Assembly: GCA_951406725.2 (NCBI GenBank)
Contig: OX597826.1
Location: 31,496,001-31,560,000 of the forward strand
Direction: 5' to 3'
Source: Octopus vulgaris
Taxonomy: Eukaryota
DNA length: 64,000 nt
A program made the translations under genes and the position numbers. Positions 9,901 to 62,929 of the stretch are shown here, in pieces (position 1 is the first letter of the stretch; each line of letters opens with the position of its first letter). The notes under the pieces are model-generated. The model saw only the letters and a list, made by a program, of their open reading frames with translations, made no database searches and was not told the origin of the DNA.

Positions 9901-12900
9901 TTGGAAAGAATATGAAAGATCTGTGAAATCAAAATATTTACAATGAAAGAACTATTGAAATCGTTCTTACTATTAAGCCATAATTTTAACAAGTCTATAT
10001 AGTCACCAACGCCTAGGAATGGCCTGATTACTTCCTGATGCAAACACCCTAACATTAGCCTATAAAAACTGCTTTTAAACACTCTTGTACTTAAATTCTT
10101 TGAGTACTTAAGATAAGATTATTACTAGATCTACGCTGGTTATCTCTGGTTTGTAAAAATAAACACACACACACACACACACACACACACACACACACAC
10201 ATATATATACAAACATGAAAATAACACTGACATCTTTCATTTTAACTTATATATTTAACAAAATTACATAAAAATATCTTGAAATAACTAAAGAGTATAT
10301 TTATTCAATAAAATCACCATTGGCTTCAACCACAGCCTCTAGACGACTTCGGAATCTCCGGTAACTCTTCTGGATGGTCTCTTTGTTTAAGTTGGTGAAT
10401 ACTACCGTAATCCTTGCCTTCACCTTTTGTTGGTCTCCCAACTATGCCCTACATATAATAATTGCAGTGCGAGGGCGGGGATTGGGTGGCCAGATGTTAG
10501 GGATGATGTGGTAGCAGAAATTGTCTGACAGCCATGACCGGGTTATTCTGCTTATGCGGCATGGTGCAGATTCCTGTTGCCAGACACAGGTCTTCTAGCA
10601 AGCACCCTCTTGACCCAGAGCAGCACTACCTCCTCCAGGCATTTGATGTAGGCCTCCGTGTTGCGTCTGATGCCGTGTGGGAAGATAAAGGGAAGTATAA
10701 CGTCGCCATCATTAATGTTCAGTCCAAATACTATGATGTTGACTGGATATTTGATTTTTATCACTCTTGGTATATGACCTCAGATTGCACCGTCTTCAGA
10801 CTGACAACCAAACACTCTGAAATGTTCGTATTGGAGCTTTCGACGCGAATGCCAAGCAGTACAGCATGTCGATTCCAAATTTCTAGGAGAGTGAAATGCA
10901 TCATAGTGCTGTTTTTCTCACAAATGGTGCCCAACGGACCTAACTATACTGTGTAGTCGACAAAATGAAAATTAATGTGCATGTGCGAAATTAAAAAAAT
11001 ATAAAATGGCGACAATTTACCCATCGCACCCTGTATACACACATACATACATACATACATACGTACATACATACATACATACATACATACATACATACAT
11101 ACATACATATATATATATATGTAAAAAAACGGAACCTTCCATCAAAGGCAATGTACGAGTGTTCAACGAGGAGTCGGAAGAAATAGACAAGCAACAAACA
11201 CTCACATTACTGTTACCATAATTCTTTAATGTTTACAATCCATTCACTTCCCCTGGTGACCACTCATGTGAATCCCCAGGCTACCAAAACCAATATGGAT
11301 TCGAGCATGACCTTGATTTATTAATCCAGCACGTGATCTAGCTGAGAAATCACAATGTGGACAACTGTGGTTGGCGGAAAGACAGTTGTTCTGTTGGTTT
11401 CTTTTCTTGTTTCTTCCTAACTACTCCTATTTCTTTATTACCCACAAGGGGCTAAACATAGAGGAGACAAACAAGGACAGACATAGGTATTAAGTCGATT
11501 ACATCGACCCCAGTGCGTAACTGGTGCTTAATTTATCGACCCCGAAAGGATGAAAGGCAAAGTCGACCTCGGCGGAATTTGAACTCAACGTAACGGCAGA
11601 CGAAATACCGCAAAGCATTTCGCCCAGCGTGCTAACGCTTCTGCCAGCTCGCCGCCTTAACTACTCCTAATGCAGTACCCTTTGGGTTTCGAAAATTTGA
11701 AGCTGGAAAAAATACTCTCTACTTCGTGACAGATACTCACACACACACACACACACAGACACACACACACACACACACACACACACACACACACACACAC
11801 ACACACGCACACACGAATATATGTGCTTGTATATATACAAACACATATATATATATATATATATATATATACAGATACTCATACACACGTATACATTCAT
11901 ACACATATTATATATATATATATATATATATATATGTATATCACGTGATCACATGACCGACCAGTCCATCAGATGTAGTTACACATCGCTGGTCACAATG
12001 CGTTCGCATTGTTTTAGCCTTCGAATGACGCCACCCCGCTGGCTAAACGATCAGGCCGATATATGTATATACATATGTATATTGTAAAACAGCAACTAGC
12101 TGATCGATTCATTCATTAACTCACCTCACTTACAACCGAATAAAACTTCTCCGTCAGAAATTTCCGTCCATAAGAACACTGTAGTTTAGATATGTTTCTT
12201 GGAGGTGTTGTATAATTTGTCCCAGTGAAACTATTGTTATATACAGAACATTTATCGTCGCCGTCTGGTTGAAGCATTTGTAAATATTCATTCTCCGTAA
12301 GATTTGCAGGAAGTATCGAAGCATTAAAGTTTGGAGGGTAACATAAGAAAGGAGCACTTGCCGTGAGAAATGGCAAGTACATTAACTGCAGTGCTGATAA
12401 CATAGATATAACAAAAATGAATGTGTAGAGCCAACGATGGTAAAGTCCAAAGGACCCACAATTTTCGATAAGCTGTGTGATATCTTTATCTGATATACCT
12501 GAAATAAGAAAGATATATTATAAAACTCATACAACGTGTGTATATATATATATATATATATATATATATATATATATATATATATATATATATATATATA
12601 TATATATATATATATATATATACATACATACATATATATATATATATATATATATATAGTTGAAATTTATAGAAAAACAAAAGACGAAGACAGGTGTATA
12701 AACAACAAGCAGGTGTATTAGTTTGACGCTTGGGAAAGTGAGACAGTGTTTTACGTTTCGAGCCTACGCTCTTCAACAGAAAGGAATCAGAAAATAGAGA
12801 ATATATATATATATATATATATATATATATATATATATATATGGCTCATAGATGAGAATCAGATGTTCTCAGTTTGGAATATACTTAGTAGTGCTCAAGA

Positions 12901-14422
12901 GGTTTAAACTTGAGCGGGTAGAGGAATAAATGTAAGGATAAGCAAGTCAAGCAGGCCGATATACAATGAATATTCTTTTCTACTCTACGCACAAGGCTCG
13001 AAATGTTGGGGGAGGGAGCCAGTCGATTAGATCGACCCCCAGTATGCAACTGCTACTTAATTTATCGACTGCGAAAGGATGAAAGGCAAAGACGACCTCG
13101 GCAGAATTTGAACTCAGAATGTAAAGACAAACGAAATGCCGCTAAGGATTTCACCCAGCGTGCTAACGTTTCTGCCAGCTCGCCGCCTTGATATACAATG
13201 AATATTATACAATAAATACATTTCATACAAAAATGCATATAAGCTTGCATAGAAAAGGTCCGACTTACACAGAATAGAAATGATATCAAGAATTAACGGG
13301 GTTGAAGAAGAGTTTTACAAAACTGACAGCTGTTTCCGGAGGTTTGGTGGCCAAAACCATGATTTCAAATCGATTCCATCGTCGGATGATACTAGCCCCC
13401 ATCTTCAGGGAACAACTCTTACATTTGAGGTGTTGACAGAAAAGAGATTAAATCTTTAATCTCCTTTAGACTTGTTTCTTTTAACTTAGATTTAATCCTT
13501 TCTTATACAGGCATAAATGTTGAAATTTTGGGAGAATGGGTAGTGGATGACAACGATCCTTTTACTTGGCTGACACTTTTTTGCTGACTCTCGAAAGAAT
13601 GACAGGCAAAGCGGGCTTCGGCGGAATTCGAACTCAAAAAGCAAGGCTGAAAAAAATGCCTTGAAACGTTTTGTAAGGCGTGCTAAAAATCTGTGAGCTC
13701 ACTTCCTTATTATATTAAATTTAATAAGCTAAATTTAATAAAAAATATTATTATTATTATTATTATTAATAATAATAATAATAATAATAATAATAATAAT
13801 AATAATAATAATAATAATAATAATAATAATAATAATAATCATTATTATTATAATAAGGCTGTAAGCTGTCAGACTGGGTGAAACGCTTAGCGGTATTTCG
13901 TCTGCCGCTACGTTCTGAGTTCAAATTCCGCCGAGGTCGAATTTGCCTTTCATCCTTTCGGGGTCGATTAAATAAGTACCAGTTACGCACTGGGATTGAT
14001 ATAATTGACTTAATCCGTTTATCTGTCCTTGTTTGTCCTCTCTGTGTTTAGCCCCTTGTGGGTAGTAAAGAAATAGGTATTTCGTCCGTCGCTGCGTTCT
14101 GAGTTCAAATTCTACTAAGGTCGACTTTGCCTTTCATCCTTTCGGGGTCGATGAAATAAATGCCAGTGAAACGCTGGGGTCGATGTAATCGACTATCCCC
14201 TCCCCCAAATTTTCAGACCTTGTGCTTATAGTAGAAAGGATTATTAAAAATATAGATTTTGATAAAATTTATACCATTATTCATTTTCCTATGTGAGGAA
14301 ATAAACAGATGCACTATAAAACTCTTGAAAGAAAGTATTTTATCTATTGTATTACATAAATAATATTTACGTGTAGCTGTTTGTGTGTTTGATTCCAGTT
14401 GGTGTTCTTCATTTTCAGCCAT
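750..14422 (-). CDS. SLC22-family transporter, paralogue A, exons 1-5 (continues beyond the left edge)
   Basis: Exons 14371-14422, 12125-12498, 9558-9661, 8072-8226, 750-918 have the same sizes as gene B (52/374/104/155/169), GT-AG boundaries and an open frame. Motifs [23 protein letters not shown]. Confidence 0.92.
1325..3740 (-). mobile_element. CR1-group LINE, 5'-truncated and degenerate (RT and C-terminus)
   Basis: Broken ORF pieces: [57 protein letters not shown]. Many stops and frameshifts. Confidence 0.85.
4310..4655 (-). mobile_element. Probable non-autonomous Helitron 5' fragment
   Basis: The minus strand starts tacatatataaagctgaagttgtc..gtgtgtgt, resembling the 5' ends of the Helitrons at 15930 and 33323. 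No 3' end was found. Confidence 0.4.
5755..7955 (+). mobile_element. Helitron remnant with PIF1-family helicase pseudogene (about 6420-7830)
   Basis: Helicase motifs [61 protein letters not shown]. Two TAG stops and one frameshift near 7420. 3' hairpin cccgg-gcaacg-ccggg followed by CTAG|T at 7952-7956. The 5' end is uncertain. Confidence 0.9.
8072..8226 (-). CDS. SLC22 gene A exon 4
   Basis: FGRRPTLLL..., 155 nt, TAG/GTAAG boundaries. Confidence 0.93.
8373..8587 (-). mobile_element. SINE family 1, monomer
   Basis: Full head, core and tail. Imperfect TSD gacgtgtattatt/gatgcatattatt. Confidence 0.85.
9230..9505 (+). mobile_element. mariner transposase fragment
   Basis: Degenerate WVPHxL-like segment (YVSHTLSE) and IVTGDEK first catalytic motif. 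Confidence 0.6.
9558..9661 (-). CDS. SLC22 gene A exon 3
   Basis: [35 protein letters not shown], 104 nt. Confidence 0.93.
10230..11035 (-). mobile_element. Tc1/mariner superfamily (maT/DD37D-like) transposon remnant
   Basis: TA-cagggtg terminus at about 11035. Peptides [22 protein letters not shown], and [18 protein letters not shown] at the C-terminus. Confidence 0.7.
11430..11658 (-). mobile_element. SINE family 1, monomer with alternative tail
   Basis: Tail ttagccccttgtgggtaataaagaaa. TSD aactactccta. Confidence 0.85.
12125..12498 (-). CDS. SLC22 gene A exon 2 (TM1 and the large extracellular loop)
   Basis: CAG acceptor, GTGAGT donor. Cys-containing loop with N-x-S/T sites. Confidence 0.92.
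12660..12800 (-). mobile_element. Short (TA)n-embedded Penelope-like element with hammerhead-like motif
   Basis: Homologous to 44690-44903 and 15820-15908. Motif cttt-CTGTTGA-a-gagc gtag gctc-GAAA-cg-TA at 12748-12783. Confidence 0.6.
12975..13189 (-). mobile_element. SINE family 1, monomer
   Basis: Perfect 17-bp TSD gatatacaatgaatatt. Confidence 0.88.
13325..13408 (-). ncRNA. Minimal type I hammerhead ribozyme motif
   Basis: CTGAAGA-tggggg...cctccg-GAAA-cagctg-TC, with a palindromic stem III and a weak stem I. Confidence 0.6.
13855..14245 (+). mobile_element. Dimeric SINE family 1, preceded by an (ATT)n/(AAT)n tract
   Basis: Core present twice, joined at aagaaata|ggtatttcgtc. Confidence 0.8.
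14371..14422 (-). CDS. SLC22 gene A exon 1
   Basis: [17 protein letters not shown], donor GTAAAT, homologous to 49901-49952. Confidence 0.85.
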
Positions 14423-62720: not shown

Positions 62721-62838
62721 GATCTTATCTATTCCTCTTTTAACCCCTATATATATATATATATATATATATATATATATATATATATATATATATATAT
62801 ATATATATACGAGAAAGAAGCAACAAGAATGGATTAGT

Positions 62839-62929
62839 TTTTAGTACAATTGTTTCATACAAAGACAGGCTTTATTACAAGTTGCAAAAATTGCAGCAGA
62901 TAAAAGTGTCCCGTACTCATCAGCTAAAA
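62839..62929 (-). ncRNA. Minimal type I hammerhead ribozyme with canonical core
   Basis: ttttag-CTGATGA-gtacgggaca...tgtctttgtat-GAAA-caattg-TA-ctaaaa. Stems I and II pair well and stem III is palindromic. Confidence 0.8.

What the first reader, a model, noticed from the sequence alone, without database searches (positions are those of the whole stretch)
12748..62929. About 11 Penelope-type minimal hammerhead ribozyme motifs from several unrelated (TA)n-associated elements, six in sense inside transporter introns
Seen: C(T/C)GANGA-like core, stem II, GAAA, short stem III and TH motifs at 12748-12783(-), 13325-13408(-), 35103-35137(+), 35698-35826(+, decayed), 43088-43150(+), 44776-44811(+), 44987-45024(-), 45731-45773(-), 56460-56505(+), 62001-62106(-) and 62839-62929(-). 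Stem III is usually a palindrome (CG, CTAG, CAGCTG, CGATCG, CAATTG). Established: minimal type I hammerheads with a palindromic stem III mark Penelope-like element pLTRs and retrozymes, and they cleave as dimers. Inference: this genome carries a very dense, diverse set of ribozyme-bearing non-autonomous retroelements associated with TA microsatellites. The six minus-strand motifs would be transcribed inside SLC22 pre-mRNAs and could cleave introns or produce small circular RNAs.
Basis: partly seen in the sequence, partly recalled or inferred. Interest (0 to 1): 0.85.

Follow-up and report, generated by a model that had tools for sequence, protein, structure and literature searches.

The report
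Octopus Penelope-element hammerheads with variant cores
The motifs are hammerhead-ribozyme-shaped tail ends of about ten families of Penelope-like jumping genes scattered through an octopus genome, a known arrangement that is not special to the transporter genes here, although several abundant families have fixed unusual changes in the catalytic core that would likely slow or silence cutting.

Summary
Ten of the 11 motifs are real; they belong to nine dispersed repeat families whose majority sequences keep the hammerhead fold. 35103-35137(+) is a miscall: that element's decayed hammerhead lies at 35193-35322(-). Two more motifs were missed. The genome is an Octopus.

Seven families trace to Penelope-like coding sequence (five Hydra-type, one Penelope/Poseidon-type, one Neptune-type through a single copy); window copies are 5'-truncated 3' ends, mostly beside (TA)n. 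Only 45731 is a retrozyme-like ~360-nt head-to-tail unit.

The six minus-strand motifs are in sense in SLC22 introns, but window density matches other regions, strand bias is absent (7:3), several copies are broken, and no same-intron pair can form a double hammerhead. Intron cutting or circles are unlikely.

An Octopus Hydra hammerhead is already published. Not found in the papers I could read: family-level U4C cores (three lineages, one with an uninterrupted RT-endonuclease frame), an A6U core in an abundant family, and a tRNA-like segment upstream of one family's hammerhead. No cleavage or RNA evidence was obtained. The scan reported similar Penelope end-pieces in other genomes.

The parts
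12748..12783 (-). F1 hammerhead variant, core CUGUUGA (A6U), helix III CG; SLC22 gene A intron 1, sense
   Evidence: helix I 3 bp in this copy
13325..13408 (-). F2 hammerhead, canonical core, helix III CAGCUG; helix I destroyed in this copy; Hydra-type PLE 3' end; gene A intron 1, sense
21535..21630 (-). Missed hammerhead (F11), canonical core, helix III CAAUUG, imperfect helix II; between gene B stop and gene A start codon
   Evidence: 2 related copies found
35193..35322 (-).
   Evidence: (14 copies)
35698..35826 (+). F4 decayed hammerhead, family core starts U3 with G8 kept, helix III CAGCUG; Hydra-type PLE 3' end; antisense in gene B intron 4
43088..43150 (+). F5 hammerhead variant, core CCGAAGA (U4C in 24 of 24 copies), helix III CUC-A-GAG; 3' end of a young Hydra-clade PLE; antisense in gene B intron 2
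44776..44811 (+). F1 hammerhead variant, core CUGUAGA (A6U in 29 of 29 copies), helix III CG, in a ~200-nt truncated 3' end followed by (TA)n; antisense in gene B intron 2
44987..45024 (-). F6 hammerhead variant, core CCGACGA (C4 in 18 of 23 copies); helix III damaged in this copy; Hydra-type PLE 3' end; gene B intron 2, sense
45513..46175 (-). F7 retrozyme-like insertion: about one ~360-nt non-coding unit, split by a LINE fragment; absent from the paralogous gene, which keeps the empty (TA)n site
45731..45773 (-). F7 hammerhead, core UUGAUAA (U3-A8 covariation, 22 of 24 copies), helix I 6 bp, helix III CUAG; gene B intron 2, sense
45790..46060 (-). 3' fragment of an L1-like LINE ending just 5' of the F7 hammerhead; same junction in L217 and L218; 5' boundary approximate
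   Evidence: upstream frame in L217 matches LINE-1 ORF2 at E=0.001
56347..56397 (-). Missed inverted, decayed copy of the F8 hammerhead
56460..56505 (+). F8 canonical minimal hammerhead, helix III CG; Penelope/Poseidon-type PLE 3' end; lies between two + strand SLC22 exons of a gene fragment
62001..62106 (-). F9 hammerhead, canonical core, long helix II, helix III CGAUCG, helix I only 2 contiguous bp; no coding parent found; gene C intron 6, sense
62790..63171 (-). F10 5'-truncated 3' end of a very young Hydra-type PLE
   Evidence: 99.2% to L272; 14 other copies 100% identical over 179 nt; RT and endonuclease upstream in L284
62839..62929 (-). F10 hammerhead, canonical and intact (helix I 6 bp, helix III CAAUUG); gene C intron 6, sense; best candidate for activity
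63174..63315 (+). Inverted 'tail' piece of the F10 element at the 5' side of the insertion
25077..49952 (-). SLC22 organic cation transporter gene B, nine GT-AG exons, open 555-codon frame
   Evidence: 507 of 555 residues identical to P0003, Octopus sinensis
749..14422 (-). SLC22 gene A, exons 1-5 (continues off the left end); intron 1 about 12501-14370
59375..61562 (-). SLC22 gene C, exons 7-9; exon 6 lies about 4 kb beyond the right end, so 61563-64000 is intron 6

Best explanation
The motifs are the hammerhead-bearing 3' ends of ten dispersed repeat families in an Octopus genome, seven of which join to Penelope-like reverse-transcriptase or endonuclease coding sequence in longer copies, and they likely arrived in these introns as passive 5'-truncated insertions at (TA)n microsatellites. 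Inferred mechanism: the element's RT/GIY-YIG protein nicks AT-rich DNA and starts reverse transcription 30-240 nt downstream of the hammerhead, usually stopping early and often adding an inverted second piece, so most copies keep only the hammerhead and its tail. In a tandem parent the hammerhead would cut the unit out of a read-through transcript, as a homodimer through the palindromic helix III or with help from the element's protein. F7 is a non-coding ~360-nt unit that likely borrows this machinery through a tandem or circular RNA. Lone intronic copies lack a compatible partner and are likely inert or nearly so. The U4C and A6U cores were carried by the parents that made the copies, which fits a ribozyme that is weak or dispensable for transposition.
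For: Shown: enrichment over shuffles (176 hits in 845 kb of loci chosen around the motifs, against 0, 2, 2). Family majorities restore the fold. Sister subfamilies change both sides of helix I and helix III pairs. Sharp 3' ends at (TA)n with ragged 5' ends. Inverted partner copies. Uninterrupted 714-codon frame with RWK, DKT, CxCX5C and C-terminal endonuclease about 190 nt upstream of the F5 motif in L267. RT and endonuclease upstream of F10. Endonuclease joined to the motif in several copies of F6, F4, F2 and F8. Empty (TA)n site for F7 in a paralogue. Literature: min-HHRs mostly occur as lone motifs of truncated PLEs and a single motif showed no cleavage (PMC4209133); a Poseidon HHR cut only with the element's protein, was not needed for insertion in vitro, and no RNA-seq reads ended at its site (PMC11167929); Hydra elements target (TA)n and carry such HHRs, including an Octopus one (PMC8557442).
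Against: No coding parent was found for F3, F9 or F11. The F1-Neptune link rests on one copy whose spacer is low-complexity and partly unshared, plus a sister motif 2.9 kb behind a Neptune-type frame in L275. Clades were assigned by motifs, not by a tree; Pfam gave no hit for the L267 protein at E<=0.1. Family copies were the top-scoring matches to the window copy, which biases majorities towards it, although copies found by chance in other loci also carry U4C (F5) and A6U (F1). Cleavage, expression and circularity were not observed.
Confidence: 0.85

Rival explanations
1. The sense-strand intronic hammerheads cut SLC22 pre-mRNAs or release small circular RNAs and so affect transporter expression.
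For: Seven motifs are in sense in introns. 62839 is fully canonical and 45731 nearly so. An axolotl HHR with a 2-bp helix III cut 22% in an hour as a monomer (PMC7229834), so weak monomer cutting at 62839 is possible.
Against: Cross-pairing of helix I is 0-2 bp for all three same-intron pairs tested. 13325, 35193 and 44987 are broken. Sense:antisense is 7:3, P=0.34. Density is ordinary. The F7 insertion and the 5.3-kb stretch holding F5 and F1 are absent from the paralogue, so they are not conserved. Gene B keeps an open frame.
Confidence: 0.07
2. The variant cores (U4C, A6U, U3 with G8) are dead relics: the ribozyme is dispensable in these lineages and the fold persists as a protein-binding handle or by recent descent.
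For: HHR mutants did not affect insertion in vitro (PMC11167929). Naiads proliferate without canonical HHRs (PMC8557442). Changes at A6 and U4 lower activity (PMC3088659). Canonical sister subfamilies exist next to F1, F5 and F6.
Against: All other core positions and all three helices are kept in these families. U6 persists while N7 takes all four letters across F1 subfamilies. U4C creates a CpG and is seen in three separate lineages. A U4C viroid ribozyme is reported to suffice in vivo (PMC3088659).
Confidence: 0.45
3. All families are non-autonomous retrozymes or SINEs.
For: Window copies are short and non-coding. F7 fits, and F8 carries a tRNA-like segment.
Against: Seven families continue 5' into endonuclease or RT coding sequence. 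Head-to-tail closure was seen only for F7 among the window's families; the F9 tandem in L085 is a local duplication of host DNA.
Confidence: 0.04
4. The motifs are chance matches in AT-rich intron DNA.
For: One call (35103) was wrong, and relaxed descriptors give about 0.4 chance hits per window. Rfam finds nothing.
Confidence: 0.01

Closest known systems
Minimal and short-helix-III hammerheads of metazoan Penelope-like elements (Cervera and De la Pena 2014, PMC4209133)
   Same: Type I topology, palindromic helix III, many sequence families per genome, mostly lone motifs of truncated elements, inverted pairs 100-700 nt apart, U3-A8 covariation.
   Different: Family-level U4C and A6U cores are not mentioned in the parts read (parts 1-2 of 4; supplement not seen). 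Estimated numbers here (order 100,000, rough) exceed the 2,000-9,000 per genome quoted there.
Hydra clade of PLEs, including Hydra-1_Obim of Octopus bimaculoides (Craig et al. 2021, PMC8557442)
   Same: RWK, DKT and CxCX5C motifs, C-terminal GIY-YIG-type endonuclease without CCHH, (TA)n target, hammerhead near the 3' end; helix III of the CUC-N-GAG type and an extra base before GAAA occur in its File S2.
   Different: All Hydra rows of File S2 seen have a canonical CUGA core, whereas F5 and F6 have CCGA. The listed Hydra-1_oBim motif matches none of the window's families (compared by eye). F10 has a ~1.7-kb 3' UTR.
Animal non-LTR retrozymes (Cervera and de la Pena 2020, PMC7229834; Li, Clavereau and Pollet 2026, 10.64898/2026.07.22.740005)
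   Same: F7: non-coding unit of 340-400 nt with one type I hammerhead, head-to-tail junctions, self-paired fold; mussel retrozymes are 350-390 nt.
   Different: F7 has a U3-A8 core and PLE-style inverted 5' pieces at (TA)n; circular RNA not shown. Cephalopods are not named in the parts read.
Poseidon element PAc of Anolis (Frangione et al. 2024, PMC11167929)
   Same: Hammerhead at the pLTR, AT-rich target, 'tail' signature.
   Different: PAc was tested biochemically; nothing here was. F8 has a tRNA-like segment and (AAT)n between the endonuclease stop and the hammerhead.
Natural hammerhead core variants (Perreault et al. 2011, PMC3088659)
   Same: U3-A8 is active, U4C is known from a viroid, A6C from a phage has low activity.
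   Different: There they are described as rare variants; here U4C and A6U are the family state of high-copy retroelements. A6U is not named in the passages read.

Membership tests
PLE minimal / short-helix-III hammerhead | Canonical core CUGANGA ... GAAA ... UH at family level (F2, F3 minus strand, F8, F9, F10) | tested here: met
PLE minimal / short-helix-III hammerhead | Canonical core or the known U3-A8 pair (F7) | tested here: met
   22 of 24 copies UUGAUAA
PLE minimal / short-helix-III hammerhead | Canonical core (F1, F4, F5, F6) | tested here: not met
   F1 U6 in 29 of 29; F5 C4 in 24 of 24; F6 C4 in 18 of 23; F4 U3 in 15 of 18 with G8 in 18 of 18. These are filed as hammerhead-like variants.
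PLE minimal / short-helix-III hammerhead | Helices I and II closed, helix III short and palindromic | tested here: met
   family majorities; helix I only 2 contiguous bp in F9; odd-length palindrome in F5 and F6
PLE minimal / short-helix-III hammerhead | Located at the 3' end / pLTR of a PLE open frame | tested here: met
   F5, F10, F6, F4, F2, F8; F1 one copy only; not shown for F3, F9, F11
PLE minimal / short-helix-III hammerhead | Self-cleavage, as dimer or with protein | not testable with these tools
   bench assay needed
Hydra clade PLE | RWK and DKT motifs, CxCX5C linker, C-terminal endonuclease without CCHH (F5) | tested here: met
   read in the L267 frame against the definition
Hydra clade PLE | Same motifs in F10, F6, F4, F2 | tested here: inconclusive
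   only RT 3' part and/or endonuclease recovered; CxCX5C seen for F10 and F6; all align to the F5-type endonuclease
Hydra clade PLE | Insertion into (TA)n | tested here: met
   F5 23 of 24 copies at 100-101 nt; F10 21 of 29 at 29-31 nt; F6 12 of 23 at 30-34 nt
Hydra / Neptune / Penelope-Poseidon clades | Placement in an RT phylogeny | not tested
   no reference proteins were at hand in the script box
Neptune clade PLE (F1) | CX2-5CxxC linker before GIY-YIG, contiguous with the hammerhead end | tested here: inconclusive
   linker and endonuclease in L017; spacer to the motif only partly shared with other copies
Penelope/Poseidon clade PLE (F8) | C-terminal GIY-YIG without a Zn linker, RT upstream | tested here: inconclusive
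   endonuclease read directly 5' of the F8 end in L266, its last part also in L260, L133, L253; broken RT in L266; no tree
Non-LTR retrozyme (F7) | Non-coding unit of about 170-400 nt with one type I hammerhead | tested here: met
   362 nt from anchors; natural periods 342 (L227, with a deletion) and about 396 (L237)
Non-LTR retrozyme (F7) | [quoted passage not shown] | tested here: met
   tail-to-head junction in 6 of 24 loci; two consecutive hammerhead-bearing units in 1 of the loci inspected, L237
Non-LTR retrozyme (F7) | Highly self-paired unit | tested here: met
   circular fold z = -3.9 against 60 shuffles, 60% paired, for one natural unit
Non-LTR retrozyme (F7) | Accumulates as circular RNA | not testable with these tools
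   no reads could be examined
Rfam hammerhead families | Match to a covariance model | tested here: not met
   none in the window at E<=10; none in 5 loci at E<=1e-5

The most novel reading that the evidence does not exclude
Octopus Penelope-like elements have repeatedly fixed uridine-turn changes (U4C in three lineages, A6U in the most frequently met family) that detune their hammerheads so that they cut only when bound by the element's own protein or paired in a tandem, letting some 100,000 copies sit in host introns without shredding pre-mRNA.
Probability: 0.2. Interest if true: 0.7.

Novelty: new variant of a known kind. Interest (0 to 1): 0.38.

Why it matters
What hammerheads do for Penelope-like elements is stated to be unclear in the papers read. 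This genome offers natural pairs of canonical and variant cores in sister subfamilies, including a young family (F5) with an uninterrupted protein frame and a U4C core, so the question 'must the ribozyme cut?' can be tested directly. It also adds a cephalopod retrozyme-like family that shows PLE-style insertion. For SLC22 biology the finding probably means nothing.

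Tried and rejected
Rfam scans: only microsatellite-driven miRNA-family noise, no hammerhead. The repeat finder was swamped by microsatellites. Pfam missed the single SLC22 exons and the Hydra protein. 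RNA evidence: no RNA holder listed on record and no reads were laid, so nothing is claimed on expression, splicing, cleavage ends or circles. Reading 35103-35137(+) as a type II/III permutation or a Naiad half-core was dropped once the minus-strand hammerhead was found. The endonuclease upstream of F9 in L270 belongs to another element. The Neptune frame beside F1 in L008/L273 is on the opposite strand and ends at its own (TA)n. The Hydra RT remnant in L134 is separated from F3 by other repeats. A first count of F7 head-to-tail copies (14 of 24) was discarded because the probe matched AT-rich palindromes; the junction count (6 of 24) is used. Sequence kinship of F7 with the 359-nt array in L278 is not shown (blastn best E=0.17). 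The tRNA-like segment of F8 scored with ARAGORN only at a lowered threshold (80%), where many chance hits also appear, and gave no Rfam tRNA match at E<=1e-5. Lunse et al. 2017 could not be read. Dropped before counts: window-derived and paralogous loci from family alignments and from the flank density (14 loci); copies not spanning the motif (11 of 23 for F3, 6 of 24 for F4).

Full report
Setting. The window is G000:C13:31496001-31560000 of a 2.8-Gb genome. Its transporter exons match Octopus SLC22 / organic cation transporter proteins. Gene B (49952-25077, minus strand) has nine GT-AG exons and an open 555-codon frame with 507 of 555 residues identical to P0003. Gene A starts at 14422; gene C shows exons 7-9, and its exon 6 lies about 4 kb beyond the window. 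Seventeen matches to exon 6 lie within about 0.5 Mb, so this is a tandem gene cluster.

Observation. The 11 strings are present. A monomer descriptor gives 2 strict and 6 relaxed hits against shuffle means of 0.03 and 0.38 (100 shuffles). Each motif lies in a dispersed repeat; first-look candidates, which are lower bounds, were 1401 (F1, 44776 and 12748), 620 (F2, 13325), 42 (F3, 35103), 189 (F4, 35698), 1026 (F5, 43088), 1847 (F6, 44987), 2422 (F7, 45731), 2200 (F8, 56460), 296 (F9, 62001) and 1172 (F10, 62839). I aligned the best 12-29 copies per family. Where a window copy is damaged, the family majority restores the pairing (F2 helix I, F4 helix III, F6 helix III, F7 and F8 helix II). The 35103(+) call fails this test. 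Using motifs found in the loci as probes showed that the same element has its hammerhead on the minus strand at 35193-35322; 14 copies give a canonical core, a 4-bp helix I, a 10-bp helix II and a CAAUUG palindrome. Two further motifs were missed: 21535-21630(-) and an inverted F8 copy at 56347-56397(-). Between sister subfamilies both sides of pairs change, for example helix I in the F1 group and helices I and III in the F7 group.

What the families are. 3' ends are sharp and abut (TA)n (F1 about 90 nt, F5 101 nt, F6 33 nt, F10 29 nt after the motif); 5' ends are ragged; inverted partner copies are common. F5: L267 holds an uninterrupted 714-codon frame with RWK, DKT, CxCX5C and a C-terminal endonuclease, followed by the F5 motif, with an inverted F5 copy at the 5' side; the first 28 codons come from the inverted copy, so by comparison with Hydra-1_Obim about 20 N-terminal residues are missing. 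F10: RT and endonuclease lie upstream of a ~1.7-kb 3' UTR, and 14 other copies are 100% identical to the window over 179 nt, so the family is very young. F6, F4 and F2 join to Hydra-type endonucleases through sequence shared by several copies. F8 joins to a Penelope/Poseidon-type endonuclease, followed by a 75-nt tRNA-like segment, (AAT)n and the hammerhead. F1 lies about 920 nt behind a Neptune-type endonuclease in one copy. F3, F9 and F11 stayed without a parent. F7 is different: its tail runs straight into its own head in 6 of 24 loci, the unit is about 360 nt, L237 has two consecutive units, one natural unit folds at z = -3.9 as a circle, and the paralogous gene keeps the empty (TA)n site. 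That is the anatomy of a non-LTR retrozyme with PLE-style insertion.

Core variants. F1 has U at position 6 in 29 of 29 copies; F5 has C at position 4 in 24 of 24; F6 in 18 of 23; F4 has U3 in 15 of 18 with G8 kept; F7 has the U3-A8 pair in 22 of 24. In a pattern search of all loci, 39 of 59 F1-type matches had U6, with all four letters at N7, and 9 belonged to a sister family with C4 (overlapping loci not merged). These are therefore states of the parents, not decay of single copies. Caveat: copies were chosen by likeness to the window, but F1 and F5 copies met by chance agree. In 845 kb of loci, matches outside their own family's loci were F1 16, F6 12, F8 7, F7 4, F5 4, F10 2, F3 1, F4 1, F9 1, F2 0, so variant-core families are the most frequently met; age or burst size could explain this equally well.

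Density. With one descriptor the window has 5 hits (4 real), outer flanks of the loci 19 in 423.5 kb, and six arbitrarily chosen 10-kb stretches 12 in 60 kb, all in 2 of the 6 and 7 in one tandem array. Expected for the window from flanks: 2.9, P(>=4)=0.32. The window is ordinary. About 45 per Mb would give roughly 130,000 intact-looking motifs genome-wide; this is an extrapolation from non-random flanks.

The intron claim. 12748 and 13325 lie in gene A intron 1, 44987 and 45731 in gene B intron 2, 62001 and 62839 in gene C intron 6, all in sense; 35193 adds a seventh (gene B intron 4). Three are antisense in gene B (35698, 43088, 44776). 7:3 is not a bias (P=0.34). In a double hammerhead the partner supplies the strand after the cut site, so helix I must pair across copies (recalled from the dimer model, which describes in outline). 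For the three same-intron pairs, cross helix I is 0-2 bp. A circle needs two cuts in tandem. Only 62839 (intact) and 45731 (one helix II mismatch) are credible monomers. Published tests found no cleavage of a lone minimal motif, protein-dependent cleavage of a Poseidon hammerhead with no RNA-seq ends at the site, and 6-22% monomer cleavage in an hour for axolotl motifs. I put meaningful intron cutting at about 7%.

Mechanism. Shown: family structure, coding parents, truncation, inversion, (TA)n targets, one empty site, core states. Inferred from the literature: nicking and target-primed reverse transcription by the element's protein, release of unit-length RNA by the hammerhead in tandem parents, borrowing of this machinery by F7. 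Untested: any cleavage or expression.

Comparison with the literature. Seen: PMC4209133 parts 1-2 of 4 (supplement not read); PMC8557442 passages, section 11 and supplement searches plus part 2 of 59; PMC6765202 passages; PMC3088659 passages and section 8; PMC7229834 parts 2-3 of 6; 10.64898/2026.07.22.740005 parts 1-2 of 5 (supplements not seen); PMC11167929 passages; PMC8967140 passages, which list Penelope among abundant coleoid repeats. Lunse et al. 2017, whose title concerns numerous small PLE hammerhead variants, was not available and may already cover cephalopods or these cores. File S2 of PMC8557442 lists an Octopus bimaculoides Hydra hammerhead, so the basic finding is in print. Searches for the variants, for octopus or cephalopod with hammerhead and Penelope or retrozyme, for an octopus SINE name that I recalled and for tRNA with PLE hammerheads returned no paper describing family-level U4C or A6U cores, a cephalopod retrozyme, or a tRNA-like segment in a PLE hammerhead end, judged from the listings and the papers opened. 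Position numbering follows the standard scheme named. Earlier notes of this scan describe similar Penelope end-pieces in other genomes and none in this genome.

Verdict. A good catch by eye of a known kind of element, with one miscall and an over-reached functional inference. The part worth following is the set of variant cores and the F7 retrozyme-like family. Interest 0.38.

Noticed in passing
L278:2272-4548 (G000:C1, about 20.002 Mb): Seven-copy array of a 359-nt non-coding unit with a canonical hammerhead (two copies inverted, five in tandem) in an arbitrarily chosen stretch: a second retrozyme-like family; circular fold z = -4.1.
   Followed up: partly
window 45790-46060; L217; L218: An L1-like LINE 3' end joins the F7 unit at the same place just 5' of the hammerhead in three loci; possibly a LINE that targets the retrozyme. 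The query included this fragment, so the three are not an unbiased count.
   Followed up: partly
L266:1333-1408; L280:7115-7201; L246; L261: Family F8 carries a 75-nt tRNA-like segment with A- and B-box-like motifs between the endonuclease stop and the hammerhead; it could be an internal polymerase III promoter.
   Followed up: partly
loci L001-L265: More than a dozen further hammerhead motifs of other sequence families, mostly single hits with canonical cores and palindromic helix III, appeared in the flanks.
   Followed up: no
L117:1719-3216: The paralogue of window 35030-35247 has a Hydra-type RT/endonuclease fragment starting at a point where the window continues without it, which points to insertion after a recent duplication of the SLC22 genes.
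   Followed up: partly
window 39671-44948 versus L192: The paralogous gene has about 350 nt where the window has 5.3 kb, including the F5 and F1 insertions.
   Followed up: no
window 55228-56804 (+): Two-exon SLC22 fragment (exons 3 and 4) on the opposite strand; its F8-containing part is 97% identical to a site 22 kb left of the window (L242).
   Followed up: partly
window 6287-7827 (+): PIF1-like helicase reading frames (Pfam E=5e-41), likely a Helitron fragment in gene A intron 4.
   Followed up: no
window 27534-29243 (-): 570-codon frame with a reverse transcriptase domain (Pfam RVT_1, E=3e-27) in gene B intron 7; looks like an RTE-type LINE (recalled motifs).
   Followed up: no
window 344-712, 8355-8590, 11428-11658, 13012-13192, 13869-14146, 19390-19800, 60863-61043: Dispersed SINE-like repeat family in both orientations.
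   Followed up: no
window 57585-58020: 16-nt tandem repeat, 27 copies, 80% matches.
   Followed up: no
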